Positions 3,295 through 26,353 of a DNA stretch of 26,800 bases are shown in pieces. Below the pieces are notes generated by a model. It did no database searches, had not been told where the DNA came from, and saw only the letters and a list, made by a program, of their open reading frames with translations. The stretch is from Prorocentrum cordatum. Taxonomy: Eukaryota. A program made the translations under genes and the position numbers. The DNA lies in the NCBI GenBank assembly GCA_963575745.1, contig CAUYUJ010000336.1:434001-460800 (forward strand). The letters run 5' to 3'. Positions within the stretch are counted from its first letter, which is position 1, and each line of letters starts with the position of its first letter.

Positions 3295-3336
3295 ATGGAC
3301 GCGACGCGGGCTCTGCTGGACTCACTGATGGGCAAG
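3295..3336 (+). CDS. LUC7: LUC7-family U1 snRNP splicing factor, coding exon 1 (MDATRALLDSLMGK)
   Basis: ATG at 3295 in the context GCCATGG. The peptide matches the LUC7 N-terminal signature (R-x-L-L-D-x-L-M-G). Ends AAG|GC (GC donor, phase 0). Confidence 0.92.
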
Positions 3337-3431
3337 GCGCGGCGCCTGCTGCTGGGCCTCCAGGGGGAGGGTGGGGAGAGGGGAGGGAGGAGGAGCTTGT
3401 ACTCTTCCTTCGTTTTCCTTCCTTTTTGGGC

Positions 3432-3700
3432 CTCCTGGGAGGCCCTCGTCGCCACAGCTGGATTCGCCTCGAAATTCTGGTCAGAACACACCTGAGAAGA
3501 GGTCCGGGAAGTAGCGGTATCGGGATCTTTTGGCTTCTCCAGGAGGGGGAACCGGGAGTCGGGAGGGGAGGGAAGTTCGATGATTGAGATTCGCTTTCTG
3601 GATGTGTTTTTTTGTCGTCCTGGAGCGCCCTCGTGGCCACGGCTGGATCCGCCTCGAAATTCTGGGCAGAACGCACTACAGGAGAGGTCTAGGGATCGAA
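3432..3700. repeat. Imperfect direct repeat (~80 bp core, ~185 bp apart)
   Basis: GCCACAGCTGGATTCGCCTCGAAATTCTGGTCAGAACACAC against GCCACGGCTGGATCCGCCTCGAAATTCTGGGCAGAACGCAC. Confidence 0.85.
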
Positions 3701-4020
3701 TTCTGACCCCTGATCAGGGCACCGACGGTGAGGAAGGAGGAGGGCCCGAGTGCGTAAGCACTGGATGCATCAACGATGCTGCAACGCACCCCCTTGTCCC
3801 AAGTCCTCTCCTCGCAGGTCCCTGCGAGCCTTCCTTTGCTGTGGTGACGAGTGGCCAATGGGCCTGATCTTGGAGCGGGAGCTACGCTTGGAAAAGGAGT
3901 GGCTCTGCATCTCTCCAGCGAAGTATCGAGGACGCCGGCGGCACATCACCAGCCGCTCCCTGGGAGTTTGTCGAAGTGGCGCGCAGCATCGGAAGTCGTG
4001 ACGCGGCGCTTACGCCAGCT

Positions 4021-4345
4021 ATCACATGGCCTTCGGCCCATCCCGTTACCGTGCCTGGGCAGTGGGTCAGAGTCCTCATGTGTGCTTCTTGGGGTCTGTT
4101 CGGAAGGCTATCGGGGGCCTCTGCGGGGCAGCTTGGGGGTCTTTTTAGGGTGTATTGGAGGCCCCCTGTAGGCACGTTGAGTGTCTTGGCGGCGACCCCT
4201 TTGGGCCCCTCCTGTGGCCCTCGTGGGGGTCTCTTGGGCCCTCTTCGGGGCCTACTGGGCCGACTTGGGGCCTTCTTGGGCTGTCTTTGGGCTCTCTCGG
4301 TGGCCTTTTGGGCCGTCTGGGGACGATCTTAGGTGCCTGACGGAA
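4021..4345 (-). mobile_element. Terminus of a Helentron/DINE-1-like non-autonomous element plus GGGGCCTCTT array (copy 1)
   Basis: ATCACATGGCCTTCGGCCCATCCCGTTACCGTGCCTGGG: a short GGCC-TTC-GGCC hairpin next to a 15-nt motif. The same terminus occurs at 14109 and 22639. Confidence 0.55.
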
Positions 4346-4877
4346 GGGCGACAAGCCCTCGGGGGCGCGAATCTGTCGTAATTTGGGAGGGCGGTGTGGC
4401 TTCGAGAACGCAGTCAACCCGCATAGTAAGGATGAGCAGATTTCCAAGGTTACCCTTGCATCCTCCCCCTTCGGCCCATCCTTGGCCGCTTTCGCTGGCC
4501 GCGCCCCGCTTGCAGAGTGTCGGCATGGTTTTCCAAGGCCCTTGCATGCTTATCGTGTGTCCTTAATTTTACGGGCTGTCTATAATTGACAAGAGATTGC
4601 GGCCTCGGGAACGCGAATCTGTCATGATTTGTTGCGGGCTGTGGCATCGGTGGCGCGAATGCAATGTAGTTCGTTATGGATTGAGGCCTCGGGTGCGTGC
4701 ATGTAGTTGTTCAAAGGCCCCAGGGCCCCCCAAGAAATTCAGAGCACGTGATCCTGGGAGGGGAGCAGGCCTCTTTTTGGCACGGGGCCCTGGCGTGGTC
4801 CCGCGGCAGACATCCTGCCGACTCCATAGTCGCATCTCCACCGTTGGCATCGCGTCGTTGGAGGTACGATGCGTAGA

Positions 4878-4904
4878 ATACATATATATATATATATACA
4901 CACA
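4878..4904. repeat. (TA)n(CA)n microsatellite
   Basis: atacatatatatatatatatacacacac. Confidence 0.95.
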
Positions 4905-4989
4905 CTACTAATAGCTACAGCATTGAACCTGGAACTGTGAAACATGTCCCTCATTGCAGTTCGGGTTTCTGATTTCATGTCTGAGGAAC

Positions 4990-5185
4990 TGGGCCTGCGG
5001 GCTGCTCTGGCCTCCATGTGGCCGCCGTCGCCGCCTGTCGTTGCCCGTCGCCTGGGCCTGCGGGCCGCTCTGGCCGCCACGTGGCCGCCGTCTCCGCGTC
5101 GTCGCCGCCCGCTGCAGCCCGTCGCCTGGGCCTGCGGGCCGTTCTAGCCGCCATGCAGCCGCCGTCGCCGCCTCGCCGCTGCCCG
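4990..5185. repeat. GC-rich 63-74 bp tandem repeat, 3 copies
   Basis: TGGGCCTGCGGGC..TCT.GCC.CCA.G..GCCGCCGTC at ~4990, 5053 and 5127. Confidence 0.85.
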
Positions 5186-5654
5186 CTTTTCATTGCTTTG
5201 CATTGATTGGCATTGCTTGGCATTGCTGCCGTTGGAAGGAACAACTGTGCAACAAACGTTTAGGAGCTTCTTCGTATTATCCCCCTCCGCCCCTCCGACC
5301 TTAGTGTTGAACAACCGGTCCCTTAGAAGTGGGGCCGGAAAAAACTGGAGCCCAGCATCTCGGACGCAATGTTTGCCAATGTTAAGGTTGGGGTGTGGAG
5401 GGGGGAATTTGGTTGTTTCTACTTCGGGGATTTTTGTTGCATAGTGTTTCCTTCAACAGTTCGAAAGCTCGCGTCCTTCTTTTGGGAGGTCTCAATGAAC
5501 AGTTGTAAGTCGCCCGCGTACGCGATCTATCGAAAAAGAGTTGGGAGAAACACATGCGGGTGGAGCTTACTGAGGCGATGATGCACTCACCATCGGTGCA
5601 ATATTTCATCGCTTCGCTCAACCCGCCGACCCGTATTGTGCACTCGCTGGCGTT

Positions 5655-6335
5655 TGGGCTTTTGGGGGCCTTTTGGGGTCCTCGTTGGGGGTTTCTTGGG
5701 GGCCTCTTGGGTTTCTGTTGGAGCCTCTTTGGGGTTTCTTGGAGCTCCTTTGGGAACATTTGGGAGCATCTTGGGTCTTCTGGGCGCCGCTTGGGGCCGA
5801 GGGCTCGATATGTCCGTTCCGGTTCCCACTTTGGGCCTCCTCTTTGGGAGCTTCTTGGGGGCCTCGTGAGGGCCTTTTGGGGGCCTTGTGGGGCCTCTTC
5901 GGGGCCTCTTGGCGCCTCCTGGGGGCTTCTTAGGGCCGAGGGCTCGAAATGTTGTTTCGTGTTCCCTCTCTGGGGCTTCTCTTAGAGCGTTCTTGGGGCC
6001 CTCTTGGGCCGTCTTGGAGGCCTATTGGGCCGTCTTGGAACCCTCTTGGGCCGTCTTGGGGCCCTGTCGGAGGCCTCTCGGGCCTCTTAGGGCGATCTTG
6101 GGGGCCTCTTGGGCCATCTTGGGGCGTCGCGATGCCGAAAAGGAGGAAACGCCAAAATCTCCCGAATACTTAAGGAAAAGCAATGAATGATGCCTCTTGG
6201 GGCCCTCTTAAGCTTCGTGGGGCGTCTGGGGGCTATCTTGAGCGTCTTTGAGCGATCTTGTGGCATCTCGGACCCTTGGTGTACCATCTTGGGGGCCTCT
6301 TGGGCGCTCTTGGCTCTTCTTGGGACTCTCTCTTG
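5655..6335 (+). repeat. Degenerate 10-11 bp GGGGCCTCTT(G) minisatellite block
   Basis: Repeated ggggcctcttgg / gggccgtcttgg units, which produce the GASWG/PKRPQ pseudo-ORFs. Confidence 0.9.
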
Positions 6336-6877
6336 GCTGGCGCCACCTTTTGCACCCGTCCGGCCCTGGGACACAGCTTGGGTTCCTGAGTTGTTCCCAC
6401 GGTTCCGTGGTGCCCTCGCGCCATTTTGGCCGCGCTGCAGCTCGGCTGCTCGTCGCACTAGTGCGTGCTGCTGCTGTTGGACTTCCCGGCCTCGGCCTTC
6501 CTGGTACCTCGCAGCTTGCCGATGTACATGCCCAGTCTGGGCACCCAATTCGACCTCCGACCGTCGGTTTACTTGGCTGCGGCCACCCTGGTACTTTCGC
6601 ATCAGTCCGTGGGCTTGCGCCCTTGCAACTAATTCCTGTCTGCAGCTTCCTGGTTTCCGGTTACCCTGGACGCCCGCTGCCTCCGACTCGTTGCACGCGA
6701 CCCTGGCTGTACTGGTGACCCACCTACAGCCGACCCTTTTCCACTCGACGGCCAGCCGTTGAGGTGCTGCGTGAGGCTCCGCCCCACCGCTTTAGGTTAA
6801 TTCGTCTGTGCGCGCCCCGCTCTGATTGGACTCGCCGCTGGCGCGCTCGCCTGCCGGCCGCTGACTAAAAAAGTATA

Positions 6878-7581
6878 CCCACCAGCCCATCCAGAAACAA
6901 TGTCCAGGCGAGTTGGGGTGATCAGGGAAGTGCGGCAGCAAAGAGGAAGACGGCCGAACCGTGCAAAGGAGTGAGGAGGAGAAGGAGGAGGTGGATAGAT
7001 GGATGGATGAGGGAGTGGGAGGAAGGAACAGGAGGAGGAGGAGGAGGAGGGCAAGCACAAGGGCCAGAGGTCTCTTGGATGCCTCTCGGAGCCTCTTGGG
7101 GTATCTCTTGGGCGATTCTTGGTGGCCTCTTGGGGCGTCTTGGGGGTCTCTTGGCGATCCTGGGAGGCTCTTCGGGGTCTTGGGTGCCTCGGGGGGGGCC
7201 TCTTGGGGCCGCTTAGGGTCTTCTTGGGGGCCTCCTGGGGGCCTCTTGGGGACCTCTTGGGGCCATCTTGGGGCCATCTTGTGACCTCTTGGGGCCTCCT
7301 GGGCGCTTCTTGGGGCCATCTTGGAGGAGATCGGTCAACGAAGGGGGGGTCCTCAATTACGCACCCCCCCCAGGAGGCCAAAATGGGGCCAAAACCATAG
7401 TAAAATCAATGATTTTGGCTTCCTCGCCGAGGCCGTTTTGGACGCTCTAACTACCCGCGCCCCCCCCCGTCCAGGTCCACCAGGAGGGGGTAGGGGGAGG
7501 GGTAAACCCCTCCCCGAAGGGGAAGAGGGAGGGGTGGAAGTGGAAACGCCCTAAACCACCGACGCCCAGAGGGCTGGTTGG
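6878..7581. mobile_element. MITE/HINE-like element with short inverted ends, internal GGGGCCTCTT array and a strong hairpin
   Basis: CCCACCAGCCC (6878-6888) against GGGCTGGTTGG (7571-7581), 10 of 11 complementary. Perfect hairpin GGGGAGGGGT-AA-ACCCCTCCCC at ~7494-7515. A related inverted segment lies at ~18950-18990. Confidence 0.45.
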
Positions 7582-7637
7582 ATTTGCTTGTTTCTAGCTA
7601 GGGGGCTGCTGTTGCAAAGTTGTCTTTCAATCGTATG

Positions 7638-8050
7638 AATTGCTTTGCATTGCTTCGCGTATTGTTGCATTGCTGTGCATTGCTAGACATGGTTTGGCAT
7701 TGTTTGACATTGCTTTGCATTGCTGTCCACTGCTTCGTCTTGCGTTGCATGGCATGGCATTGCGTTGCATTGCTTGCTTTGCATTGCTGTGCCATGTGTT
7801 AGTGCTGCTTGGCATTGCTGTGTACCACTGTGCTCTTTGCATTGCTTGGGAATTGCGCTGATTTGCACTGATTTGAGTTGCTATCATCAGTTATGCGTTA
7901 CGTTGTATTGGTTTGCCTCGGTTATCATTGTGTGCCGCGCACTGCTTTGCATTATCTTGTATCGATTTGCGCGTTGTTGTGGGTTGCACTGCACATCAAC
8001 AAATGCACCACATGGATTGCATCGCCTATATGACACGGCATTGATTGCAC
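7638..8050. repeat. Degenerate (ATTGC/TTTGC)n pentamer repeat
   Basis: Runs of gcattgctttgcattgc; a shorter patch lies at 5190-5230. Confidence 0.85.
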
Positions 8051-8059
8051 CACCTAGAT

Positions 8060-8736
8060 TGCCCCGTTCGGGGGTCTCTCGGGCGCCGTTTGGGGGCCTG
8101 ATTTGGGCCTCTTGGGGGCCTCCTATAGCTGGTGGAGGGCCTCTTGGGGGCCTGCTGGCAGGACCCGGGGCCATGTTGGGGCGGCGAAGGGCTCGAAGTG
8201 TCGATTGGGGCCTCTCTTGCGCCCCTGTTGAAGCTCTATTGGACCGTCTTGGGGGCCTGTTGGGCCATATTTGAGCCGTCTGGGAACGCTCTTGGGGGCC
8301 GCCTTGGAGGCCGTCTTGGGGCGATCTCAGGGGCCTTTCGGACATCACTGGAGCGTGGAAGGCCAGAAAAGGCGAGAAGACTAAAATCATTAAACAGCCA
8401 TTTGGAAATCAGTGATTCGGGCATCTCGGGGCCCTCTTGGGGCGTCTTGGGGGCCTTCTGGGCCGTCTCGGGGCCATCTTGGGCGTCCTGGAGCGCTGTC
8501 GGTCTGTCTTGGATGCCTATTGGACACTTATTCGAGCACTCTCTTGGCTCGTCTTGAGGGGCCCCAGGGCCTCTGGAAAAGTCACGCTGGGAAGCCTAGG
8601 AGCGCGCGGGAGCGCCAAGACGATTGGAGATGTGGGGCTCCCTGCCCCGAATAGACTGGCTTCAGCACTGGATACAGGGTACACAGATCTCTCGAGTCCT
8701 TGGGGACCACTTCGTGCCTCCAGGCACGGTGGCGAA
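8060..8736 (-). mobile_element. Opposite terminus of the same family with GGGGCCTCTT array
   Basis: CCAGGCACGGTGGCG (8720-8734) is the exact reverse complement of CGCCACCGTGCCTGG (22663-22677). It overlaps the stem-loop CGTGCCT-CC-AGGCACG (8713-8728). Confidence 0.5.
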
Positions 8737-9227
8737 GAAGGAGACGTGTTGGAGGAGGAGGAGGAGGAGGAGGCGGACGGGTTTATAAACGTTTCTGAAT
8801 GTTCATCGGTGTCTCTGAACCCTGCGGGGACCTTCGTGGACCTCCATGTACCTCAAGATAACTACCTCTCTTCTTGCTGACGGGCAAGGCTTGGCGCCTG
8901 CTGCCGTGCCTCCGTTTTGGGAAGGACGGGGGGACGGGAGGAGGGGGATCGATGTTTTTCGACGTCGGGGGTAGAGGAGCATCGAGGGAGTAGGATCGTG
9001 GAGAGAGGGAGGAGGAGGGGGGAGGAGGATCGAAGGATGAGGAGGGTCGATGGGTTTTGAACTTTTCTCTTCCATTTTGGGACTTTCGTGAGGCTCCCCC
9101 GTGGACAGTTTTTCCTGCTTCAGGACGTCCTCCTTGCTTGGCGTGAAGGAGTCTGACGCCTGTCATCCTTTTTGGACATGGGGCTGCCGTGGCCGCGGCT
9201 AGACGCAGCTCAGATGACTGCATTCAC

Positions 9228-11150
9228 GGCGGGTCGTATTCAAAATGCGATTTTGATTTAGCGCCGCACATTCCAACCTTTGCCAACCGTTACATGGATA
9301 GTGGGCGGGTCGCCTTCAGAATAAGGAACTCGGCTTGGCACCGCGCACATGTGTCTTGAATAATGTGCCAACAGGTACAAGGACTCAACTTACCTTGTCA
9401 AGCTTGGTCCGTCCAGCCAGATGTCCAGCTGGATGTTTTTTGGTTGTGCCGCAGTTACTGAACAAGTGCAAGGTACACTCTCGAAAGGTGAAGGCTTTCA
9501 CCTCGTGACTGCGCACATGTGTTTCAAAAGCTTGTGAACATATGCAAGTGTGGAGGGCGCTCAGTGTTAAACAACAGGATTTGGGCTCAGCGCCGCGCAC
9601 GTTTATTGTAAACGTGTTAGCAGTTGCCCCACTTGGGGTCTCCGCCGTTGCGGCTCACCTCCCGCCTTGCCTCTCTTCTCTGGAGGCTGCCAGCCGTGCC
9701 CGCCCCCCCCCTCCCAGACGGCTCCGCCTAGCGGCCCGTCCCTTTCTCCGCCTTCCCCTCGTGGGGGCCCCGCCCGTGCGCCATCGCACAGGGCTGCGCC
9801 AAGTCCCAGGCTGTGATGCCGTGCACTGGCCTTGAGATGGCGTTCACTCTCTGCGACCCGCCCTCGCCTAGCGAGCCGCGTGCCGTGCCGTTCCGCGCCG
9901 GTGCCTGCTCCCGCAGCCGCAGCGCCTTGAAGGTGGTCTTGCCCCTGTCCGCAGCGCTCGCTGCCCTGTCTGGGGGCCACCGCCGTTGCGGCTCGCCTCC
10001 CGCTTTTGCCCTTCGGCGTCCCCTCGGACGGCCCCTGATGGGCCCGCCCCCATGGGGGCCCCACCCGTGCGCCACTTGCACTAGGTGCTGCCTACTCCCT
10101 AGCCGTGATGCCGTGCACCGGCTTCGGGATGGCGTTCGTTTCTTCTCAGGCTGCTTCTGCCCCGTTGCCGCGCCCCTCGGCAGGTCGACCGGCCGCTCAG
10201 CGGCCTCGCCGCTGGCCCGCCCGCTGCCCGCCGCCCGTGGGCCTCTCGCAGCTGATGCAGCGCCGGCACACTTTGCCCCTGGCCGCCGCCGATTCCCACG
10301 CCGCTGCCTCCCCCCCGCCCGGCGCCCCGGTTGTCTGGCCGCCGCATGCTGCTCCCGCTCCCCCAGTTGCCGGGCCCTGCCTGAACTGTGGCTGCTGGCC
10401 CCTCCCCACGGGTGCTCTGGGACGCCGCCCCGCAGCAGCTGCCACGGGCTGCCCTTCAACCCAGCCGCCCCCCGCGCGCTCGCCGCAGCCCCGCTGCGCA
10501 GAATGCCCCGCCCGCGCCTGGCTCCCCTCCCTGCGCGGCCGCCCCTTCGCCTTCCTTCCCTCTTGCATGCGGGTCAATTCGCGACGCCGGGGCCCCGACA
10601 CGCGTGCGGATCGCCTCTGCCGCGCTGGGACGCAAAAAATGCGAGCAGCTTGCAAGAGCCACTTGGATGAAGGGCGGGTCGCTTCACAAGTGCGGCCCCC
10701 GCGTTCCCGCCGTGCACACTACTTTGAGACAGCTCGCCATCAGTTAGATTGGTAGATGGTGGGTCGTCTTCAGCCTTGGGCTCTCGCCTCAGCGTCGCCC
10801 GCATGTGTTCTTGTTTTCCAAACTTGTCTAGGGCTACACGAATGGAGGCCGATCGCTTTCAAAAGGACTACGGTTTAGCATTGTGCGCATCTGTTTAAAT
10901 CTGTGTTGAATACTTACACGGATGGAGGATGGGCAGCGTTCACAATGAGGTTATCGTATATGTGCCGTGCACGCTCGTTGCAAAATGCGGTAAACAGCTA
11001 AAGGATGGATTGCGCCTTTTTATACTAAGCGCCACGTGCATTCGCTGCACGAGTCTTACGACAGCTACAAGAACGTAGGGCGGCCCGATTCCTCAAACAA
11101 ACGATTGTCAGCGTTGTAAGATTACACAGCTGATGCACGGATGCCCGTTC
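9228..11150. repeat. Highly decayed ~76-87 bp satellite interrupted by a GC-rich internally duplicated insert (~9640-10620)
   Basis: GGCGGGTCG..TTCA motif at ~9228, 9304, 10673, 10758, 10846 and 10928, with recurring GCGCACATGTGT. The insert repeats CGCCGTTGCGGCTC (9643/9981) and GTGATGCCGTGCAC (9813/10105). Confidence 0.55.
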
Positions 11151-11267
11151 AAAACCAGACTATCGTTGGATCATCCCGATCTTGAATGGCCCTATGTGTG
11201 TTGTATGTCTTGTGGTGAAGTAGTGCGACGCGCTTCTACTTTAGAAAAGGCTATCGCATGAAAGTTC

Positions 11268-11700
11268 GGATGCAACTCACGGGAAGCCTCTGTGTCTTTC
11301 GCGCCCTTGGATAGCGTCTGGTGGTGTCCGATAGCGTTTCTCGCGCGCCTGGACATCGTTTGATAGCGCCTGATAGCGTTCGGCCTCGGCCCCTTTGAAC
11401 GATATCCAACGCCTCGATAGCGCTCGATTGCACTCGCGCCTGATGATGCAGTCGATAGCGGTCAGCAGCGCTCACCCCTGGATAGCGTTCGTTTGCTCTC
11501 GGATATCATCACCATCCAAAGACACGTCATCATCGGATAGCGCTCGATAGCGCCTGATAACGTTCGGCCTCGGCCACGCTATCGAACCCTATCGAACGTC
11601 CTGGGCCGCTCGAGAACTGACGGGAAAAGGGGGGAGGGAGGAAGATGACGAGGAGAGGGAGAAAGGGGGAGGCGTTCCCTTGATGCTCCCTTGATGCCGA
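11268..11700 (+). mobile_element. Truncated second copy of the foldback element's left terminus
   Basis: Starts GGATGCAACTCACGGGAAGC, the same terminus as at 11727. Rich in GATAGCG. 11500-11670 is closely similar to 11990-12150. Confidence 0.8.
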
Positions 11701-12149
11701 CCGCCCCTTAGGCCTGCCACTCATTAGGATGCAACTCATGGGAAGCTATAGTGTAACGCTACTATGCTATGCTATTGTTCCCTGCGTGCGGACAGCGTGC
11801 CCATAGCGTCCCCACGGAGTTCCTCGTACGTGTCTAAGCATTATCACCATCGCCATCGAGCGCGAACGCTATCGGATGCTATCGAACGTTGTCCAGGCGC
11901 GCGCTATCGACATCTATGTCCGACGTGGATAGTGCTCGATAGCGTTCACGCCTGGATAGCGTTCGCGAGCGTTCGGATCTCCTCGATCTCAGCACCATCC
12001 AGAAAGACGTCATTATCGGATAGCGCTCGATAGTGCCTGATAGCGTTCGGCCTCGGCCACGCTATCAAACGCTATCGAACGTCCTTGACCGTTCGAGGAT
12101 TGAGTGGGGAGGGAGGAGGATGACGAGGAGGGAAAAAGGAGGAGGACCA

Positions 12150-12620
12150 GCGGAAAAGTGAGAATATTTGAAGGACGACGAGGTGGCCCTCGTGTTGCCA
12201 TCCCTGTCGCGGACCTTGACAAGGCCAGCGCCGAGGCTGAGCGTCCACGGCCTTGTCGTCGCGAATGCTCTGGTCAAAAAAACAGATGCCATCGGCTGGG
12301 CAGTTCGTAGGCAGGTCGTGGAAGTTGGTTGGATCCACGAGGTATTTTGGGGTCTCCCTCGGCGCGCGGGCAAGCTTGCTCTGGCACTGCGCCAGGTACG
12401 ATACCATCACCTCGGAGGTCGCGCTCGCTGTGAGACGGTAGCTCAAGAGGTCGGTGGCTGGTACGCCGGTGCCTTCCCTGGGAGATTTTGCGGGAGATTG
12501 GCCGACAGAGTTGAATATTGCCGGATGTATTCTTCATCATCGGCCATGGCCGTTGTGATCTTCGGCCTTTTCTTGGCCATGCAACGGATTGCGCGGGCCG
12601 CGCGCCATTATAGCCATTAT
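12150..12620 (-). pseudogene. Inverted, frameshifted counterpart of the same coding-like fragment in the left arm
   Basis: MAKKRPKITTAMADDEEYIRQY..., then a frameshift near 12470, then LLSYRLTASATSEVMVSYLAQCQSKLARAPRETPKYLVDPTNFHDLPTNCP. Confidence 0.45.
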
Positions 12621-17214: not shown

Positions 17215-17395
17215 GCCAGCGCTTCAGCGGGAGCACGATTCGGGACGAGCGGAAGCGCGGAAATGAAGCCAACGTTGCAGCGGGAACACGATTCGGGACG
17301 AGCGGAAGTGCGAAAATAAGGCCAGCGCTACAGCGGGAGCACGATTCGGAACGAGCGGAAGGCCGAAAATGAAGCCAGCGCTGCAGCGGGAGCAA
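17215..17395. repeat. 53-bp tandem repeat, about 3.4 copies
   Basis: GCCAGCGCT.CAGCGGGAGCACGATTCGGGACGAGCGGAAG at 17215, 17268, 17321 and 17374. Confidence 0.95.
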
Positions 17396-19134
17396 CATTT
17401 TGAACAAAAACCCTAGCGAAAACCCAATTCCTGGGAATCTTGTGTGTCAAAAAAAACAGTACGCGGAGAGGGGCCGGATATCTTCCGGCCGTCATCAGGG
17501 GAGAGAGGCGAGAAGTATTCATGTTGTGTGTTAAAGATTTGCGACCCGGACCTCCGACGATTCGATTGTTTCGAGTCGTTGATCCTTGGAACTCTCGGAA
17601 CAGAGTCGTTGGTTCCTTGTTTCGAGTCGCTGCTTAGGGAACACGAGAACGGAAAACATTGTTTGGCTCGAGCCTTGTTTCGTCATGTGTCGTTTCTTCG
17701 ACGATCCTGGGGTCCCAGAAGTGATCTCCAGATGCCGATTCTTGCTGGTAGCGGCGCGGGTTTCTTCGAGCCGCCGGGGGCCTGGGGGAGGGAGGCTGTC
17801 GCTGGGCAGGGCGGCGTGACCGCCGCCTGGCAGGCCGACCCCTCCGCGCACCCTCCCCCTCAGGGATCCTCGTCTGCCGTTTGCCAACTCGCCTCCTTCT
17901 CCCTGGGCCTGTGCGGGGCGACGTGGTCGTCACGGAGGGGAGCGGCTGGGCCGCGCCCGAGAGGGGAGGAGGCATAGGGAGGGCAAGGAGGAACGACCCC
18001 TTGGTGAGACGCGTCCCTTGCCGAAGAACATCACAACTTCGCGGGCCAGGGCCCCAAGATCCTCCACCGCTATCGAGTCGGCTCACCACGCCTTCTCGAG
18101 ACGGGCCTCTTGTGCAATGAGGGTCTTGGGGACATCTGAGGGGCCTGTACAAGGAGCCTTGAGCGCCAACACCCGACCCCACAGCCCCACAAGTACGCAC
18201 AGCGCTCGCAAACATCGATCAAGCAGGCTTCGGCCATCCGATGGCCGAGGATGAGGAGGAGTACCCAATCGGCTTGGCCGGGCCTATCTGGGCCATCCGC
18301 CACAGCCGCCACGGGACCCACGGGATTCTCCCCAGACGGGCCAGCCACGGACCCCGCAGGACCACCCACCCCCCAGGCCCCCCACCATTCCCAGGGGAGG
18401 GCCCTCATGGACCCTGGCAGCCGCTTCCAAGGCCTTCGGGACCGCCTCGGTAACCATCGGCCTCCCGTCGGGGAGGCCAGGGAAAGCACGGGCGGCCTAG
18501 GCAATGGGAGTTCTTGCTCGAAGGACTGTGGATCCGTCTGATGATTACGCCAAGAGGCTCCCTGGAGGCCTCCAAGGTCCAAGGATAGGCTGGGGGGGAG
18601 GGGGGAAGGGGGTGGCGGGCGGCGCCAGTGCCATGCCGAAATGCCACCATCCCTTTGGGCGCAGATGGTCTAGTGTATTCTCCGTTCCTCCTCGACAGAA
18701 GCTCTCTTCAACTGTATGTTGGTTCGGGGGGGGGGCGGGCGGTCAGCGCCCAGGACGGGCCAATTCATTCCTCCTCCGTTTTCCCTCCTTCCTCCCTTCA
18801 TCCCTCCTCCCTCCCAGACCTCCTGACTACAAGGCATCGCCGAAGTGCCGGCGTCGGCGAAGGGCGGGCGCGGCGCCGGCGGTGCCATGCCGAAATCCCA
18901 CCAGCCTTCTGGGCGCATGTTGTCTCGCATAGTCACCTCTCCTCTTGCCGACCCCTTCTTCCCTTCGGGGAGGGGCTCCCCTCCCGTGTTCGTTTGGGGG
19001 AGCGAGCGGTCAGAGCGCCCAAGATGGCCCGAGATTGCTCCAGCAGGGCCTCCGAGGCCTTCAGATGGCCTCCAAGATGGGCTCAAGACAGCTCCGCACG
19101 TTGAAAGTGGTGCGCGGCCAACAAGAATGGCCGG

Positions 19135-19870
19135 GACGGAGGGGGCATTAGGGTTGCTGGGGCCACTCGGGAAAAATGACGGGGTTGTTCCTGCGGGGGG
19201 GGATTGGAAGGGTGGGGGGGTGCGACGCGAAAGTAAAAGGGTCGGGGTGGAGGGGGCACTGGGCTGCTGGAGGACAGTGGGGACCGGGGGCGGGCGGGGG
19301 GCCTGCGGGGCGTGAGGTCTGGGGACGGGGGGGCGGGGCCGGTGGTCTGCAGTGGGGATAGGGGGTGGGCGCGGTGGCCTGCCGAAGGGAGGGGCGTGGG
19401 GAGCTGGGGCTGCTACGCAAAAGTTGAAAATGGCCAGGGCGGAGGCGGCACTGGGCCGCTGGAGGACAGTGGGGAGAAGGGGGCGGGGGCGCCAGCCTGC
19501 GGAGGGGCAAGAGGGGCCCGCGCGGAAGGGTGGGGGGGGAATGCGACTGCGACCCGATAAGTCGAGTAGTCGGGGCGGAGGGGACACTGGGTGGCGGGCT
19601 GCGACGCGAATAGTAAAATCGTTGGGGCGAGGAGGGCACTGGGCTGCACTGGGCTGCGGGAGGACAGCGGGCGGTGGCGGAGGGGCTTGTCGGGAGGTGG
19701 GGGTGGGGGGGGCGCGTGGGGGGGGTGTGGGGGTGGCCACACGAAAAATAGCATGCCCGAGGCGGTGGGGCCACTGATCTGCTGGTGGACAGCGGGAACA
19801 AATAACTGGGGAAAGGTGCGCCAGCTTGCAATTGAGAAGGGGTAGGGAGGGAGGCTGCGACACGAAAAAA
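19135..19870 (+). repeat. G-rich degenerate repeat with G-quadruplex potential
   Basis: Recurring GGCACTGGGC.GCTGGAGGACAG.GGG and TGCGACGCGAAA motifs between long G runs. Confidence 0.75.
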
Positions 19871-20199
19871 CAACAATGGTCGGAGCTCTAGACACCCTGT
19901 GCAAGAGAACGAGGATTAAGAGGCGCGGGCTGGGAAGTTTATGAATGACACCCGAGGACCTTGGTTCGTCCAGAAATGGCAGGGTCAGAGTCGCACGGTG
20001 GAGATGCAACCAACCTGGGCGCTCTAGGAGGGGGAGGGGGAAGAGGCAGTACGTAAAGCATACGGGCAGCGAAGACGAGGATGAGCAGGACGGGGGATGC
20101 CCAGGATGACCAGAAGAGGGAGGGCGGGCAGGGGCGTAACATGGGAGCGACGAGAAGGTGAAAGGATGGGAATATCATTGCGCTGCCCCAGCGCGCCAG

Positions 20200-20244
20200 T
20201 ACTATCTCGTCGGCGAGTGTCCCCACGACATGTTTGCCAACCAG
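20200..20244 (+). CDS. LUC7: LUC7 coding exon 3 (YYLVGECPHDMFANQ)
   Basis: CCAG| acceptor. Peptide matches the LUC7 ZnF1 motif Y-L-x3-C-P-H-D-[LM]-F-x-N. Ends CAG|GA (GA donor), phase 0. Confidence 0.93.
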
Positions 20245-20574
20245 GAGTGCCAAGTCTCGTGTGTCTCTCTCAGTTCCACCGCCTCGCCCCCCCTGTCCGC
20301 CAGCCCCGTGCCTGATTCACCTTTTGCCCATCACCGTTGACCACCGTTGTGCTGCCCTGTCCTCAGCAGCATCGCGTCTCTCCGCGCACCCATGGTTGCT
20401 TACTCTTACCCATTGTTTACCAGTGGCGTATCGTTGTCGGGTCTTCTTTATTTGCAGCACGCTCATTGCTGGCCTCGCACACTTGGTCGCGCAATCGGTC
20501 TCATCCTTTGTGTTCCTCCCCTTCCCCTCCCTCTCTTGCGGGTACCATCATCAAATTGCTGCCAGCCGAGTCAG

Positions 20575-20672
20575 GAGGGCAAGGTCGCGGTCAACAGCCC
20601 CATCGGCGCGTGCAAAAAACAGCATTCGGAGGCGATGAGGGAACGCCTCAAGTCGGACAGAGACTACCGCAG
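20575..20672 (+). CDS. LUC7: LUC7 coding exon 4 (EGKVAVNSPIGACKKQHSEAMRERLKSDRDYR + AG)
   Basis: TCAG|G acceptor; an in-frame alternative AG at 20564-20565 would add PSQ. Supplies the G-x-C-x3-H that completes ZnF1. Ends CAG|GC (GC donor, phase 2). Confidence 0.88.
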
Positions 20673-21320
20673 GCGCCTCCTCTATCTGTGTTGCCCCCTT
20701 CATCCTCCTCATCCTCATCTCGCCCATCATGATCCTTCTCGTCCTCCTGCCCCTGATCTCCTTGCTCCCGCTTCCCCCCTCGTTCGCTCACTGGCTAATC
20801 GTCGTCGTTGTCGCCTTCCTCCTATCAGCCTCATCCGCCTCTTCCCCGAGCCATTCAGACCGAGCCGGTATGCCTTGATCTTGCTGTCATCAACGTGTTG
20901 GGGCCGAGCCATTGGCCAGACACGGGCCGCCCGTCGGGAACGCCCGACACATCCTCCAGACTCTCGTTGTCCACCCCGCCTCTCCCCTCCTCTCGTCGCC
21001 CCCTCTCTCCCCCTCTCGCTTCACGCTGCGTTGGATGTCTTGCAGAGGCAGGTTGGAGGCATCAGTTGCTGAGTGTGGCAGGGGCCCGCTCGGGCTGATA
21101 CGTATTTGGTTGGGAATACGTGTCGCCAGGCTATTGCCGAAGCATTGTGCTGGCACTCTGTGCACAACACCTTTTCCCTCGTCCCTCGTCAACTGCTCCA
21201 CCTCCTCATGAGCACTGATCGTTTTTCCCCCGAAGACGTCTTGAGAACGGCGCGCCCCCTTCTGCGTAGCGCTGTTTTTTAATACCAAAAAACGGAGTGG
21301 TTCGAGTTTGCTTGTTCTGT

Positions 21321-21369
21321 TGTGTGTGTGTGTGCGTGTGTGTGTGTGTGAGTGTGTGTGTGTGTGTGT
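21321..21369. repeat. (TG)n microsatellite
   Basis: Directly visible. Confidence 0.95.
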
Positions 21370-22206
21370 CATCCGACCGTTCTCAGCCTTCTCAGAATAT
21401 GGTGTTCCCGCCGCACGGTGGGTCTCAGTTGAGGATCGGGGCTTTGCTCCCGTCGTTCGGAGTGGCGTTGTCGCCCCAGCGCGGGCCAGTTTTCTGAATC
21501 CGAGTCCTTCCTCATCCTTGTCGCCCTCCTCCTTTTCCCTCCTCCTCCTTCCCCTTATCCTCCCGCTCCTCCCGCTCCTCCCACTCCCGTTCCTGCTGTT
21601 GCTGTTCGTACTCGTCCTCCTCCTTCCTCGTCCTGATCCTTTTCCTCCTGCTCATCTTCCTTCTCATCCGCCCCCTCCTCCAATGCACGCATCTCCCATT
21701 TCCAGACTGTGCATGGCATGGTAGTGGTCTTTTTGGAGTTCCAGGTCCGCTTTGACACGCGTCGGCGTACACAGAAACACACGTCAGTGCAATGAGATGC
21801 GATGAGTGGGAGGGTAGGATGTCGGATACTGCGCGAGCGCAGCCAGCTCGCCTTCCCCCCGCTCCCCCCCAGAGCTCCCCATGAACAAACTCTCCAAGGG
21901 GAAGCACTTCAGCCACGCCTTTCTCTCGTACGTCCATGCGGACTCCCCCACACAGCCGCCCCACGCCCGGGCGCTCGAGGCCCCCAGCCAGGCCGCCGCG
22001 TTCCGCTTCTTGCATCCCGCTCCACTGCCTGAAAGTCCCTGCACGCGCTGATCAGCTGCAGCAGTCCCTGCCGCCAGCTCGCGCCGGGCAGTAGTGATTT
22101 CAGATCCCAGGTTGTGCCATTCCAGCTCGTCTCACACCACACCACCATCTTTCTACTACGCACGTGGTAGATGACGTCCCTGTGCGCCAGACCGCACCCG
22201 AACCCA

Positions 22207-22636
22207 TCACCTCAGGTTCTTGAGCTTCGTGTCGTGCAGGGTGACTATGGCTTTCTTAGCCTCCGTTTCTGTGGAGATGCGTACTTGACCGTATCCGAAC
22301 GGTCTGCCGTAGACGGTCCCGTCTTCGTGAGCACTCTGCGGAATTCCACGCTGCCCGCCTGCTTCACGTGGTCCTATAGGTCGCGCCAGTCGCCGTCGTA
22401 AGATAAGCTCCCCACGTAGACCTGGCTTGAAGCTGATGACGTTGGCTCGTCCACGCCTCGCCCCGCCTTCTGCCACTGCTGTCCCAACTCGCACTCCCTG
22501 CCCGCGCCGCGGCTGGCCTGCGGCGTGCCGCTGCGCTTGTTTAGCGTGCACGTGTCCCCCCACACCCTGCCCTCGTCCTCCTCGTTCCCCGCGTCGTTGT
22601 CAGACACCTCCTGCTCCTTCTCCTCCCCGGCTGTGT
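22207..22636 (-). pseudogene. Intronless RRM-protein pseudogene (Gbp2/hnRNP M-like RRM), antisense in LUC7 intron 4
   Basis: QVYVGSLSYDGDWRDL*DHVKQAGSVEFRRVLT / EDGTVYGRPFGYGQVRISTETEAKKAIVTLHDTKL. Contains RNP2, a W-x-D-L-K-D-type helix and RNP1. In-frame TAG at 22374-22376 and a 1-nt frameshift near 22327. The 5' side is cut by a repeat element at 22639. Confidence 0.85.
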
Positions 22637-22638
22637 AA

Positions 22639-23720
22639 ATCTCATGGCCTTTCGGCCCAGCCCGCCACCGTGCCTGGGGTCTGGGTGCAAAGCCGATTGG
22701 ATGTTCGTTGGGATCTCGCGGGAGTCCTCCTGGGGGCCGCTCGTCGGGGGCCTCTTGGAGGCAGTTTGGGAGCCTCTTGGGGGCCGTCGGGGGGCCTCTT
22801 GGGGGCCGCGTGGGTCCCCTTGGGGGCCTCTTGGAGGCCTCCTGGGACCCCCTGGGCGCCTCTTTCGGCCTGGTCTCTTGGGGCGGAAGGCTGGGATTGT
22901 CGGTTCGTGTTCCCTCTCTTGGGCCACTTTTGGGGCCGTCTTGGGCGCCTCCTGGGCCATCTTGGGGCCCTCTTGGGGGCCTCTTCGGGCGTCATGGGGC
23001 GGTCTTGGGGACCTCTGGGGCCGTCTTGGGGCGTCGGAAGTCCGAAAAAGCGAGAACGCCAACCTCCTTCGAACACCCGGGAAAAAATTAGTGATTCCTC
23101 TCGCTTCGCGGGGTGCACGTCCGGAGTACGTGCAGTCAAGTCGTTTTGGGGGTTCTCGGGAGTTTCGTGGGGGGCGTCTTGGGCCTTTTGGAGGCTTCTT
23201 GGGGATTTCTTGGAGGCCTCTTGGGGATTTCTTGCGGCCCCTTTGGGGCCTCTGGGGGGCCTCTTGGGGCCTCTTGGGGGCGTCTTGGGCCGTCTTGGGG
23301 CGCTTACGCGCCGTTTCGCCCCTGGAGGCTGTCTTCGGGGCCTCTCGCGGTCTCCCTGGGACTCTCTTGGGGTTCTCTTGGGCCGTCTTAGGGGCCTCTT
23401 GGACCGTCTTGGGGGCCCATTTGGGCAGTCTTGGGGCCCTCCTGGGCCGTTTTTGAGCCATCTTGGGGGCTTATTGGGCTGTCTTGGGGCGATGTTGGAG
23501 GCGTCTTGGGCCGTCATGGGCTTTTGAGAGTCGCGAAAGAAGTCAAAAGTCCTAGGGACACGGGGCCCTCTGAGCCCGTCCTCGGAGCTTTTTGGATTCT
23601 CTTGGGGCCATCTTGGGCCGTCTTGGGGTCGTCTTGGCCCGCGCAGAGGCCATCTTGAGCCGTCTTGAGGCTCTCGTGGGCCCCCAAAAGGGCCAAAAGT
23701 ACAGAATCATCGATCTTCCA
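22639..23720 (-). mobile_element. Same element family (copy 3)
   Basis: ATCTCATGGCCTTTCGGCCCAGCCCGCCACCGTGCCTGGG followed by ~1 kb of GGGGCCTCTT/GGGCCGTCTT array. The right boundary is approximate. Confidence 0.55.
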
Positions 23721-24044
23721 TAGGTTCTTGTAGGTTTTCAGGCCCAGAAGGGGTCCACCACTTTTGGGTCGACGGATGTGGCGTGACCCCTGGGGGGGTA
23801 GGGGTGAGACATAATAGTGTAACACAATACAACGTGTAGCAATTTTGCAACAATTTGATACATTGGTTTCGTTGCATTACCGCCTCCACAGAAAACGCTG
23901 CCGCTCAGCACGTCACTTCGGGACGTGTACCTTCCAAAGCCAGCTCTAATCATGGGCGGCGACCAACTTCCACCTGGCTGGCGCTGCGCCGCACTTCGCC
24001 CAGGGGGGGAAATGACAGTACACTCCAGTCGCTGTGTGGGCTTC

Positions 24045-24232
24045 GGGGGGTTTCTACGGGGCCTTGTTTGGGGGCTTCTTGGAGACTTCTTGGAGGCCTC
24101 TTGGGCGTTTCTTGGGGCCTCTTGGGGCCTCTCGCGGCCGCCTTGGGGCCCTTTTGGGGTCCTCTTGGGCCGTCTTAGGGGACACTTGGACCGTCTTGGG
24201 GGCCTATTTGGGCCGTGTTGGGGCCCTTTTCC
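24045..24232 (+). repeat. Degenerate GGGGCCTCTT block
   Basis: Same unit as the other blocks; resembles 23150-23450. Confidence 0.85.
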
Positions 24233-24579
24233 TCGACAGGTCGAGTGCTGGACGGACGACTCCATGGGCGGCGCGCCCTTGCCGCGATCGTGCCAGCCGC
24301 CAGCCTGTTGTTGCGGTCTCTTCGCAGCCAGGATACGCCCTTGCCTGCGCTCTCGACAGCTTCGCAGCGCGATTTCCGCAGCGCGAGTGCTAGAGCCGAC
24401 GTGGCCTTGCTACGCTCATCAGGAGGGGGCTTCGTGCATGGGCAGCCACACTCGCCCGTCTCTGGACCCGCTGGCCAACGCCATGGGTCGCACTTGCTCC
24501 GATAGCGTGCTCTCCCAGCTGAAGGTTTACGTCTGTGCACTGCGCGACGTAACCGGTGCCTCTGTCGTCAACATTCTGA

Positions 24580-25075
24580 ACATCAGTTTTATCATCGGCA
24601 TGTTGATTATTCTTAGTATGACTTGCATGTTTATTAAGAGTACCAACATTATGAATAGTACCAGTATTCATATTAGTATTATTAGTGTCATTCTTATGAT
24701 CATAAATAATACCAGCATCATCAGTAGCATGATCAGCTGTCATGATCGTCATCATCATTGTCACCAATAGCATCTTCATACTCATCGTCGTTGCCATCGT
24801 CATCATAATCAGACGCATTATCATCATCACCACCATCACCATCACAATCACCATCATCACCATCATCATCATCACCAGCCTCGTCGTCACCGTCGTCGTC
24901 ATCATCGTCATCATCTACTGGTGCCAGTAGCATTATCATCACCAACAGCATCACCATCATCAACATCATCATGATCGTCGTCGTCGCGCTCGTGGTCGTA
25001 CTCGTCGTCGTCGTCGGCATCATCGTCACCATCACCACCATCATCATGACTTCCATCATCTCCGCCATCATCACG
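24580..25075. repeat. Degenerate (CAT/CAC/CGT/TAT)n trinucleotide repeat
   Basis: catcatcatcaccatc...; source of the poly-I/M/D pseudo-ORFs. Confidence 0.9.
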
Positions 25076-25827
25076 AGCACGCCTCCGCCGCGTGCTGTTT
25101 CTCCGCTTCCTCGTGCTATCCTCCCGCCGTAGTTAATGCTGAGTTCACCGTGGGCTATGGTTATGGGCCGCGATTCCAAAAAGGGCAGAGCGGGTCGCAT
25201 TACAAGCAGCACGTTCCACAATCGGGCGTCCGTGCGTGGATACGTACTTGTATGTATCAAATAGCTTAAGGTTCGAGTCCGAGTATCTCTCTGGATCCTT
25301 GTGGGCTCGTGCGCGTATTTCGGGCAGGGATCAGTTGGTGCACTCCCTGCCGTTAGCGTACACATCCGAGAATGTTTTCGGGTAGTTGGCTGTTCGCTTG
25401 CCATTCACAGCAGATCGACGGTATTGCCTAAGTGCCAATCAAGTTCGACAGCATGAGTGTCCCCCTCCCCCACTGGCCGTACCTGCTCCTCAATCACTTC
25501 CCCCCCTCTCCGTCGAAGCCCCTCGCACATATCCCCTCCCCTTCCCCATCCCCCGCCCTCTGCCATTCCTGCCTCCCCCTCTATGCCTCCCCGCCCCTCC
25601 TTGGACCCTCCCTCGATTCCTCCGGGGAGGGAAGCCCTGCCCCTCGGCGAGACCTCAGGCCGTTTGTGCGAGGGCCGCGCGGGCCGGCGCAGGTATACCA
25701 CGGGCTTTTGACCCCGCGGCGCGACGAGCTCAGTCGCCGGTATGAACGCCAGCGGGGTGCGCCCAACTTGGAATTGCGCCCTGTGTGCACGGGGAGTCGG
25801 AGGAAATCGGAGGACCCCAGCTGTGCA

Positions 25828-25946
25828 CGTGTGTGAGTGCGTGTGCGTGTGCGTGTGGGTGTGGGCTTGTGCTTTTGTGCTTGTGTGCTTGTGTGCTTGT
25901 GTGTTTGTGAGTGCGTGCGTTTGCGTGTGCGTGTGCGTGTGCGTGC
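25828..25946. repeat. (TG)/(TGCG)/(TGTGCT) compound microsatellite
   Basis: Directly visible; ends ~120 nt upstream of exon 5. Confidence 0.9.
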
Positions 25947-26065
25947 GCCCTCGCTTGGCCAGGCTTGGCCAGGCCAGGACCGGTGCAAGGGTGCACAGCT
26001 AGGGTCCTCCCCAGAGGCACGGAGGGGGCGGGCCGCGGGCAGGGCGGCAGCGGGCGCCGGCCCAG

Positions 26066-26096
26066 GTACCGCAGGCAGTACCTGGGAGAGCTGCAG
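26066..26096 (+). CDS. LUC7: LUC7 coding exon 5 (G + YRRQYLGELQ); gene continues beyond the window
   Basis: CCCAG|G acceptor with phase 2 matching exon 4. YRRQYLGELQ aligns with the LUC7 helix after ZnF1 (YERDFLRYLQ-type). Ends CAG|GC. An alternative in-frame acceptor lies at 26073-26074. Confidence 0.75.
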
Positions 26097-26287: not shown

Positions 26288-26353
26288 GGCAGGCGCAGGC
26301 GCAGGCGCAGGCGCCGGCGCAGGCGCAGGCGCAGGCGCAGGCGCAGGCGCAGG
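26288..26353. repeat. (GGCGCA)n hexamer repeat
   Basis: About 10 copies, one variant GGCGCC. Confidence 0.95.

What the first reader, a model, noticed from the sequence alone, without database searches (positions are those of the whole stretch)
3295..26096. Hidden LUC7 gene: 276 coding nt in five micro-exons over 22.8 kb, with no GT donor
Seen: exons of 42, 60, 45, 98 and 31 nt join in correct phase into a LUC7 N-terminus. Donors are AAG|GC, AAG|GA, CAG|GA, CAG|GC and CAG|GC, so only the exonic AG and +1 G are invariant. Introns are 13464, 3339, 330 and 5393 bp. Known: LUC7 proteins are U1 snRNP factors that help select 5' splice sites, and GC/GA donors are common in dinoflagellates. Inference: donor recognition here relies on the exonic MAG|G half, and the gene for a donor-selection factor is itself wholly dependent on that mode.
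Basis: partly seen in the sequence, partly recalled or inferred. Interest (0 to 1): 0.8.

Follow-up and report, generated by a model that had tools for sequence, protein, structure and literature searches.

The report
Ordinary dinoflagellate LUC7 gene start
This is the real 5' part of the LUC7 splicing-factor gene of the red-tide alga Prorocentrum cordatum, and its five tiny exons with GC and GA splice donors are normal for that genome, so the only new point is that the public gene model misses the first two exons.

Summary
The five + strand exons (42, 60, 45, 98, 31 nt), their phases, donors and intron lengths are exactly as described. The joined 92-aa frame is a LUC7 N-terminus. It scores 175 bits against a profile of 17 PF03194-positive dinoflagellate homologs, while the best of 200 shuffles scores 7.4. 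It aligns end to end with transcript-derived homologs.

The window matches Prorocentrum cordatum. NCBI model CAK0789981.1 already contains the end of exon 3 plus exons 4 and 5 with identical junctions. Only exon 1, exon 2 and the first 30 nt of exon 3 are unannotated.

"No GT donor" is not special. The genome paper reports donors as GT 24.7%, GC 51.4% and GA 23.8%, which gives P = 0.24 for five non-GT donors. The invariant exonic AG|G and the 2-6 bp repeats at intron ends match the "identical repeated intron boundary" published in 2015.

No same-species RNA could be obtained, so junctions 1/2 and 2/3 rest on homology. A speculative link between clade-specific zinc-finger insertions and relaxed donors is weakened, because the near-all-GT Amoebophrya AT5.2 carries them too.

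The parts
3295..3336 (+). Exon 1 (42 nt, phase 0), start codon at 3295; donor AAG|GC. Not in the NCBI model.
   Evidence: sequence. (16.4 bits, and the only N-terminal hit in six frames). (aligns to Met1 of homologs). (no in-frame ATG upstream; in-frame stop at 2965).
3337..16800 (+). Intron 1, 13464 bp, GC-AG, with a 3-bp boundary repeat AGG. Rich in a sense-strand tandem motif.
   Evidence: shift analysis. (46 of the 72 + strand motif copies). (no terminal inverted repeat of 8 nt or more). (no Pfam domain in long ORFs).
16801..16860 (+). Exon 2 (60 nt, phase 0); donor AAG|GA. Not in the NCBI model.
   Evidence: (26.3 bits).
16861..20199 (+). Intron 2, 3339 bp, GA-AG, acceptor CAG|T, with a 2-bp boundary repeat AG.
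20200..20244 (+). Exon 3 (45 nt). Encodes the first two zinc ligands of ZnF1 (C...CPH). Donor CAG|GA. The NCBI model starts at the Met codon at 20230.
   Evidence: (26.8 bits).
20245..20574 (+). Intron 3, 330 bp, GA-AG, with a 6-bp boundary repeat CAGGAG. A GT-GA placement is formally equivalent. It contains one in-frame stop.
20575..20672 (+). Exon 4 (98 nt, ends in phase 2). Its first 8 codons (20575-20598) cover the 7-residue clade-specific ZnF1 loop insertion, followed by the C...H ligands. Donor CAG|GC.
   Evidence: (97% over 35 aa to P0001). (52.8 bits)..
20673..26065 (+). Intron 4, 5393 bp, GC-AG, with a 4-bp boundary repeat CAGG. Rich in the same sense-strand motif.
   Evidence: 24 + strand motif copies.
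26066..26096 (+). Exon 5 (31 nt by the AG|G convention; could extend to 26099 or 26102). Donor is GC in every placement. The gene continues beyond the window.
   Evidence: (P0001 residues 38-50 match 26064-26102 at 100%)..

Best explanation
The region is the 5' part (start codon to exon 5) of the single-locus LUC7 gene of the dinoflagellate Prorocentrum cordatum. LUC7 is a U1 snRNP-associated zinc-finger protein, and these exons encode its N-terminal helix and the first (CCCH) zinc finger. The gene has the ordinary architecture of this genome: short exons, multi-kilobase introns, G[C/A]-AG introns with AG|G at the donor, and a few identical bases repeated at both intron ends (IRIB). It is spliced by the normal dinoflagellate spliceosome like most other genes there. 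The public model of the gene is truncated at the N-terminus. It starts at an internal Met in exon 3, so exons 1 and 2 are a correction to the annotation and not a new kind of gene. Shown: the exon coordinates, LUC7 homology, collinearity with transcript-derived homologs, and identity with the public model from exon 3 onward. Inferred: use of junctions 1/2 and 2/3 in vivo, and the start codon.
For: Exons and donors are as described. Exon 4 retrieves 4 of 4 scored hits with PF03194, including P. cordatum CAK0789981.1 at 97% identity over the aligned part. The window GC of 0.60 agrees with the published 59.7%. The joined peptide aligns over residues 1-92 (1-91 for one) with 16 of the 21 proteins compared at 63-78% identity. 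Seven of those alignments are gapless, and 12 of the 16 start at the homolog's own residue 1 (the other four at residues 5, 7, 17 and 17). It is 100% identical to P0001 residues 1-48. The local profile gives 175 bits against 7.4 for the best of 200 shuffles. There are no rival exon copies in six frames. The homologs match Pfam LUC7 from profile position 1 or 2, whereas P0001 starts only at position 53, as expected for a truncated model. All ZnF1 ligand columns that are invariant in the homolog alignment are present. Yeast Luc7 from U1 snRNP structures aligns with the close homolog P0003 over residues 4-232 at E = 2.7e-6. The genome paper gives donors as GT 24.7, GC 51.4 and GA 23.8%, acceptor AGG 79.7% and mean intron 4709 bp. 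Here the values are 3 GC plus 2 GA donors, 3 of 4 AGG acceptors and a mean intron of 5632 bp. The IRIB pattern (2-9 bp repeats, AGG at the 5' site) is published, and the repeats here are 3, 2, 6 and 4 bp.
Against: There is no RNA from this species. No transcript-derived protein is more than 78% identical over exons 1-3, and the metagenome scan gave only 57-59% relatives. Junctions 1/2 and 2/3 therefore rest on homology. The authors' evidence-weighted pipeline did not include exons 1 and 2, which could mean they lacked transcript support. Mean exon size here (55 nt) is well below the published genome mean of 240 nt. The public model diverges from all homologs after about residue 133 and lacks the second zinc finger, so whether the full locus is intact cannot be judged from this window. 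Single exons gave no Pfam hit.
Confidence: 0.9

Rival explanations
1. One reading: the LUC7 gene is special because it depends wholly on exon-side (MAG|G) donor recognition, which would imply a feedback between this donor-selection factor and its own unusual splicing.
For: All five donors have -2A, -1G and +1G with variable +2 to +6. LUC7 paralogs do tune 5' splice-site classes in animals and plants, and LUC7L3-type proteins favour exon-side consensus (PMC11842720, passages).
Against: 75% of all annotated donors in this genome are non-GT, so P = 0.24 for five of five. AGG at the 5' site was found at every intron of the C. cohnii gene array in Mendez et al.. Nothing distinguishes this gene from the genomic background. 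No autoregulatory element, such as a poison exon or a conserved intron segment, was seen, but none was specifically searched for.
Confidence: 0.04
2. The mRNA is the same but the true cleavage sites differ from the annotated ones. Intron 3, for example, could be GT-GA, shifted by +2. Boundary repeats make several placements equivalent.
For:: each intron has 3 to 7 equivalent placements. Intron 3 can be written GT-GA or TG-AG. Mendez et al. stress this ambiguity.
Against: Only the G[C/A]-AG placement gives an AG acceptor and a +1 G at all four introns, and it matches the convention and the genome-wide statistics. No placement gives GT-AG.
Confidence: 0.05
3. The locus is a non-functional or chimeric LUC7 copy. 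Exons 1 and 2 would be relics no longer used, and the true product would start at the internal Met as annotated.
For: The public model starts at the exon-3 Met, diverges from homologs after about residue 133 and lacks ZnF2.
Against: Exons 1 and 2 are intact, in phase and 63-78% identical to expressed homologs. A product starting at the exon-3 Met would lack two of the ZnF1 zinc ligands. GC3 is 0.83. Missed micro-exons and gene fusions are a more economical explanation for the faults in the model.
Confidence: 0.05

Closest known systems
NCBI CAK0789981.1 / UniRef100_A0ABN9PBB8, unnamed protein product, Prorocentrum cordatum (P0001)
   Same: Same locus as far as can be seen. It is 100% identical over the last 48 of the 92 joined residues, with the same 3/4 and 4/5 junctions and a PF03194 hit of 49.4 bits.
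   Different: It lacks exon 1, exon 2 and the first 30 nt of exon 3. It is 728 aa, and its sequence is unrelated to LUC7 after about residue 133. That part lies outside the window.
Dinoflagellate LUC7 proteins from transcriptomes and genomes (for example MMETSP P0003, Durusdinium trenchii P0010, Symbiodinium natans 'crop' P0009)
   Same: 63-78% identical and collinear over all 92 residues, including every exon junction. They share the ZnF1 loop insertion.
   Different: Different species. They are full length, with ZnF2 and, in most of the longer ones, basic R/S/K-rich tails, which this window does not reach.
Saccharomyces cerevisiae Luc7 in U1 snRNP and early spliceosome cryo-EM structures (5zwn_Y and five further entries)
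   Same: Same family and domain order: N-terminal helix, ZnF1, coiled region, ZnF2. The match to P0003 has E = 2.7e-6 over residues 4-232.
   Different: The yeast protein lacks the 6-7 residue ZnF1 loop insertion and the 7-9 residue ZnF2 insertion of the dinoflagellate/Amoebophrya clade.
Identical repeated intron boundary (IRIB) introns of Crypthecodinium cohnii and other dinoflagellates (Mendez et al. 2015, PMC5032977)
   Same: AGG at every donor, 2-6 bp identical repeats at both ends of all four complete introns, non-GT donors, and one very long intron among short ones.
   Different: None in kind. The introns here are longer on average, as is typical for P. cordatum.

Membership tests
LUC7 (Pfam PF03194, LUC7 N_terminus) | Significant match to the family profile | tested here: met
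It scores 175 bits (E = 8e-54) against a local profile of 17 homolog N-termini (15 carry the precomputed PF03194 label; all four of P0001-P0004 hit PF03194). P0001, which contains its last 48 residues unchanged, passes Pfam at 49.4 bits against a 33-bit cut-off. Single exons alone gave 0 families.
LUC7 (Pfam PF03194, LUC7 N_terminus) | First zinc finger with conserved Cys/Cys/Cys/His ligands (plus the CPH motif) | tested here: met
   All ligand columns that are invariant in alignment A1 (C35, C43, P44, H45, C64, H68 in P0003 numbering) are present in the joined peptide (alignment). That these residues bind zinc is taken from knowledge of the family and was not tested.
LUC7 (Pfam PF03194, LUC7 N_terminus) | Second (C2H2-type) zinc finger that contacts the U1:5' splice-site duplex | not testable with these tools
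   It is encoded downstream of the window. No genome is held, and the public model lacks it.
LUC7 (Pfam PF03194, LUC7 N_terminus) | Association with U1 snRNP | not testable with these tools
   This needs a biochemical test.
Dinoflagellate IRIB / non-canonical spliceosomal introns | AGG spanning the 5' splice site | tested here: met
   5 of 5 donors.
Dinoflagellate IRIB / non-canonical spliceosomal introns | 2-9 bp identical sequence repeated at both intron boundaries | tested here: met
   4 of 4 complete introns, with repeats of 3, 2, 6 and 4 bp. Definition.
Introner elements (criteria used for P. cordatum: 8-20 nt inverted repeat plus 3-5 nt direct repeat within 30 nt of the intron ends) | Terminal inverted repeat of 8 nt or more | tested here: not met
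   0 of 4 introns. The best exact inverted repeat is 7 nt or less and no better than shuffles, within 30 or 60 nt of the ends. Only exact repeats were tested.
LUC7L3-type versus LUC7L2-type subfamily | Phylogenetic placement within one subfamily | tested here: inconclusive
   In a tree of 44 rows (8 dropped), the 27 insertion-bearing proteins form one group (100/97). The three named animal proteins lie together on the other side of the tree. Only three labelled references were available. The 'crop' name on two Symbiodinium proteins being an alias of LUC7L3 is recalled, and it was not found in PMC8078730.

The most novel reading that the evidence does not exclude
LUC7 of dinoflagellates and Syndiniales carries clade-specific insertions in both zinc fingers. 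The ZnF1 insertion is encoded at the start of exon 4 of this window. The ZnF2 insertion carries an HPH motif, and ZnF2 is the finger that touches the U1:5' splice-site duplex in yeast. These insertions could be part of what lets the dinozoan U1 snRNP accept donors defined mainly by exonic AG|G with a free +2 base. That would extend the LUC7-subfamily / splice-site-class coevolution reported for animals, plants and fungi.
Probability: 0.07. Interest if true: 0.55.

Novelty: already known. Interest (0 to 1): 0.15.

Why it matters
The practical value is small. It corrects the 5' end of one P. cordatum gene model (CAK0789981.1) and shows that short exons separated by multi-kilobase introns are missed even by a splice-aware pipeline. 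The same model also looks fused or mis-extended at its 3' side. The splicing features themselves (GC/GA donors, AG|G, boundary repeats) are textbook for dinoflagellates. The one open thread is whether the dinozoan-specific zinc-finger insertions in LUC7 relate to relaxed donor recognition. The one test possible here, Amoebophrya AT5.2, counts against a simple link.

Tried and rejected
- **RNA runs:** The look-up of sequencing runs (kind rna, window 16801-26800) listed none, so read laying could not be used.
- **Whole genome:** none is held, so exon 6 and the rest of the gene could not be read.
- **Pfam on single exons:** exon 4 (32 aa) and exon 2 (20 aa) gave 0 families, being too short.
- **Short query:** The search for homologous proteins on the 32-aa exon alone was rejected as too short. 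It was repeated with 8 extra contiguous upstream codons.
- **Metagenome scan:** searching for a same-species cDNA with P0001 residues 1-134 gave 2 loci at 57-59% identity only, which is no use for nucleotide-level junction checks.
- **Introner hypothesis:** no terminal inverted repeats were found.
- **Retroposed copy or spliced-leader relic:** 0 matches to the 21-nt spliced-leader core with up to 3 mismatches (the motif was recalled).
- **Nested genes or transposons:** 64 of the 116 ORFs of 110 aa or more (those of 150 aa or more) were run against Pfam. None reached its cut-off, and there were three sub-threshold hits of 16.5-18.1 bits. Short nested exons would not be seen.
- **Rfam at gathering scores:** 0 matches.
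- **Subfamily assignment by tree:** unresolved.
- **'Crop' alias:** not found in PMC8078730.
- **Earlier notes of this scan:** none for this genome or these words.
- **Literature:** full-text search for 'dinoflagellate' plus 'luc7' returned 1 irrelevant paper. Kenny et al. 2025 has 0 occurrences of 'dinoflagellate' or 'alveolat'.
Full report
**1. Observation.** Reading the window at the stated coordinates gives five + strand segments of 42, 60, 45, 98 and 31 nt. They are 3295-3336, 16801-16860, 20200-20244, 20575-20672 and 26066-26096. Joined, they make 276 nt with one open frame of 92 codons starting at ATG 3295; the other five frames contain stops. The donors read AAG|GC, AAG|GA, CAG|GA, CAG|GC and CAG|GC. 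The four acceptors all end in CAG and are followed by G, T, G and G. Introns are 13464, 3339, 330 and 5393 bp. The description is accurate.

**2. Is it LUC7, and is it more than chance?** Single exons are too short for Pfam (0 families). Exon 4 plus 8 contiguous upstream codons was therefore used to search the large protein collection for longer proteins. All 4 proteins with E <= 10 (of 6 candidates) carry PF03194.
- One is an NCBI protein from Prorocentrum cordatum (P0001 = CAK0789981.1).
- One is an MMETSP transcript product (P0003).
- A second search with P0003 residues 1-110 gave 18 hits, 17 of them labelled PF03194.

In a script the joined peptide aligned over residues 1-92 (1-91 for one) with 16 of the 21 proteins at 63-78% identity. 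Seven alignments were gapless, and 12 of the 16 started at the homolog's own first residue. It was 100% identical to residues 1-48 of P0001. Of the other four proteins, the Amoebophrya protein P0019 aligned over 1-91 at 48%, P0016 over 14-92, P0020 over 1-59 and P0021 in pieces. Against a local profile built from 17 homolog N-termini it scores 175 bits (E = 8e-54), while the best of 200 shuffles scores 7.4 bits. A six-frame scan of 916 stop-free pieces ranks exons 4, 3, 2 and 1 first (52.8, 26.8, 26.3, 16.4 bits), with the next hit at 5.3 bits, so there are no competing exon copies. Exon 5 matches P0001 at 100% over 13 residues.

The homologs match Pfam LUC7 from profile position 1 or 2, and P0001 only from position 53. 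Yeast Luc7 from U1 snRNP structures aligns to P0003 across both zinc fingers (E = 2.7e-6). All first-zinc-finger ligand columns that are invariant among homologs are present. Exon GC3 is 0.83. The ATG at 3295 has no in-frame ATG upstream and aligns with the homologs' Met1.

**3. Organism and existing annotation.** The window's 60% G+C and the identity to CAK0789981.1 point to P. cordatum, whose published genome G+C is 59.7%. The gene is therefore not hidden. Only exon 1, exon 2 and the first 30 nt of exon 3 are missing from the public model. That model also departs from every homolog after about residue 133 and lacks the second zinc finger, but this part is outside the window. Within the length ranges searched (71-2000, 161-513 and 111-513 aa), no other P. 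cordatum protein covering exons 1 and 2 appeared. A model outside those ranges would not have been seen.

**4. Junctions.** For each intron, every pair of boundaries giving the same mRNA was listed. None is GT-AG. Only the G[C/A]-AG placement gives an AG acceptor at all four introns. Intron 3 could also be written GT-GA or TG-AG, because six bases (CAGGAG) are repeated at both ends. Nearby in-frame GT dinucleotides would delete conserved residues or add 3 or 5 residues where the 16 dinoflagellate homologs show no insertion (only the Amoebophrya protein has one extra residue near junction 3/4) (this last step was worked out by eye from those outputs).

The exon-5 donor cannot be fixed. Read-through gives two alanine codons, and P0001 also has two alanines after that point, so the donor lies after 26096, 26099 or 26102. 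Each placement has a GC donor. Under the boundary-repeat rule this is what one expects if exon 6 starts with the same bases.

No RNA from this species could be brought to bear. No RNA run was listed, and the metagenome scan gave only 57-59% relatives. Junctions 1/2 and 2/3 are thus supported by homology only.

**5. How unusual is it?** Table 2 of the P. cordatum genome paper (PMC10666404, passages read) compares with this gene as follows.

| Feature | Genome-wide | This gene |
|---|---|---|
| Donor GT / GC / GA | 24.7% / 51.4% / 23.8% | 0 / 3 / 2 of 5 |
| Acceptors followed by G | 79.7% | 3 of 4 |
| Mean intron length | 4709 bp | 5632 bp |
| Mean exon length | 240 bp | 55 nt |
| Mean gene length | 24.5 kb | 22.8 kb spanned so far |

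With those frequencies the chance of no GT among five donors is 0.24 (0.32 for four), and three or more of four AGG acceptors has P = 0.82. The authors' pipeline was already modified for GC and GA donors.

Mendez et al. 2015 (PMC5032977, passages) described the "identical repeated intron boundary". In it, 2-9 bp are repeated at both ends of dinoflagellate introns, and AGG was present at the 5' site of every intron they examined. The four complete introns here have repeats of 3, 2, 6 and 4 bp, and all five donors have AGG. A review (PMC11453091, passages) and Aranda et al. 2016 (PMC5177918, passages) likewise treat GC/GA donors as a standard dinoflagellate trait. Only the small exons (mean 55 nt) stand out, and they are the likely reason the annotation missed two of them. 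It simply shares the genome-wide mode.

**6. Surroundings.**
- No Rfam family reaches its gathering score.
- None of the 64 ORFs of 150 aa or more reaches a Pfam cut-off.
- No spliced-leader relic was found.
- No intron has an introner-type terminal inverted repeat.
- Introns 1 and 4 are filled with arrays of an 11/21/32-nt unit. The 10-mer TCTTGGGGCC with up to 1 mismatch occurs 77 times against 5.0 expected. Of these, 72 are on the sense strand, and 70 of those 72 lie in introns 1 and 4.

**7. A bolder thread, tested as far as possible.** Kenny et al. 2025 (PMC11842720, passages) report that LUC7L3-type proteins favour 5' sites with exon-side consensus and LUC7L2-type proteins favour intron-side consensus. 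They report coevolution of subfamily and site class, and they do not mention dinoflagellates.

A profile search gave 47 hits, all PF03194. In the alignment of 46 of the 52 proteins then held, 29 of 46 sequences share a 7-residue insertion in the ZnF1 loop. These include named Symbiodiniaceae and Alexandrium proteins, Yihiella and three Amoebophrya strains. In this window the insertion is encoded at the start of exon 4. Of the 27 of those sequences that reach ZnF2, 25 also have a 7-9 residue insertion with an HPH motif. The other 17 of 46 lack the ZnF1 insertion; among them are P0049 (whose 90% cluster includes a Vitrella protein), two fish proteins and a nematode LUC7L3.

In a tree of 44 rows (8 dropped as truncated, chimeric or partial), the 27 insertion-bearing proteins form one group (100/97). 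The three labelled animal proteins sit together elsewhere, so the subfamily is unresolved.

P0029 is from Amoebophrya AT5.2, a strain reported as about 99.98% GT-AG, and it carries both insertions. The insertions therefore do not track non-GT usage, which lowers the odds that they explain it.

**8. Verdict.** This is a correctly read but ordinary dinoflagellate gene start. The net result is an annotation correction.

Noticed in passing
window 4087-8475, 13651-14831 (intron 1) and 22775-24225 (intron 4): Arrays of an 11/21/32-nt tandem unit. The 10-mer TCTTGGGGCC (up to 1 mismatch) occurs 77 times against about 5 expected, with 72 copies on the sense strand and 5 on the antisense strand, almost all in introns 1 and 4. 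The strand bias relative to the gene is unexplained. It could be a satellite or transposon remnant, or a G-run intronic signal.
   Followed up: partly
P0001 (CAK0789981.1), residues about 134-728, outside the window: After the LUC7 coiled region the public 728-aa model no longer resembles any homolog and lacks the second zinc finger. The break falls where homologs continue into the ZnF2 region. This suggests missed small exons and fusion to a downstream gene. One NCBI nr name for the same sequence reads 'Polarella glacialis'.
   Followed up: no
window 20575-20598 (start of exon 4), and homologs P0002-P0033: A clade-specific 7-residue insertion in the LUC7 ZnF1 loop, plus a 7-9 residue HPH-containing insertion in ZnF2. 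Both are shared by core dinoflagellates and Amoebophrya, including the GT-AG strain AT5.2. They are absent from P0049 (clustered at 90% with a Vitrella protein), the fish proteins, the nematode protein and yeast.
   Followed up: partly
P0021 (339-aa ORF from a 2970-nt Logan contig of another organism): It looks like an unspliced genomic read-through of a Symbiodiniaceae-like LUC7 gene. By eye, the introns after the 'MGK' and 'VNQ' positions coincide with introns 1 and 3 here. There is no intron at the position of intron 2, and there are extra introns inside the equivalents of exons 2 and 4. The first intron codons imply GA, GC and GC donors.
   Followed up: partly
window 20663-20674 and 26067-26076: The 10-nt string TACCGCAGGC occurs across the exon-4 donor and again inside exon 5, where it encodes a repeated Tyr-Arg-Arg. 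An alternative acceptor at 26074 would remove three codons in frame. Homolog lengths and the public model favour the longer form.
   Followed up: partly
window 261-716, 830-964, 17209-17422, 24740-25074, 26289-26353: Other tandem repeats upstream of the gene and in introns: a 153-bp unit x3 at 93% match, a 17-nt unit, 53/106-nt units, (CAT)n-like tracts and (GCAGGC)n. None has an evident function.
   Followed up: no
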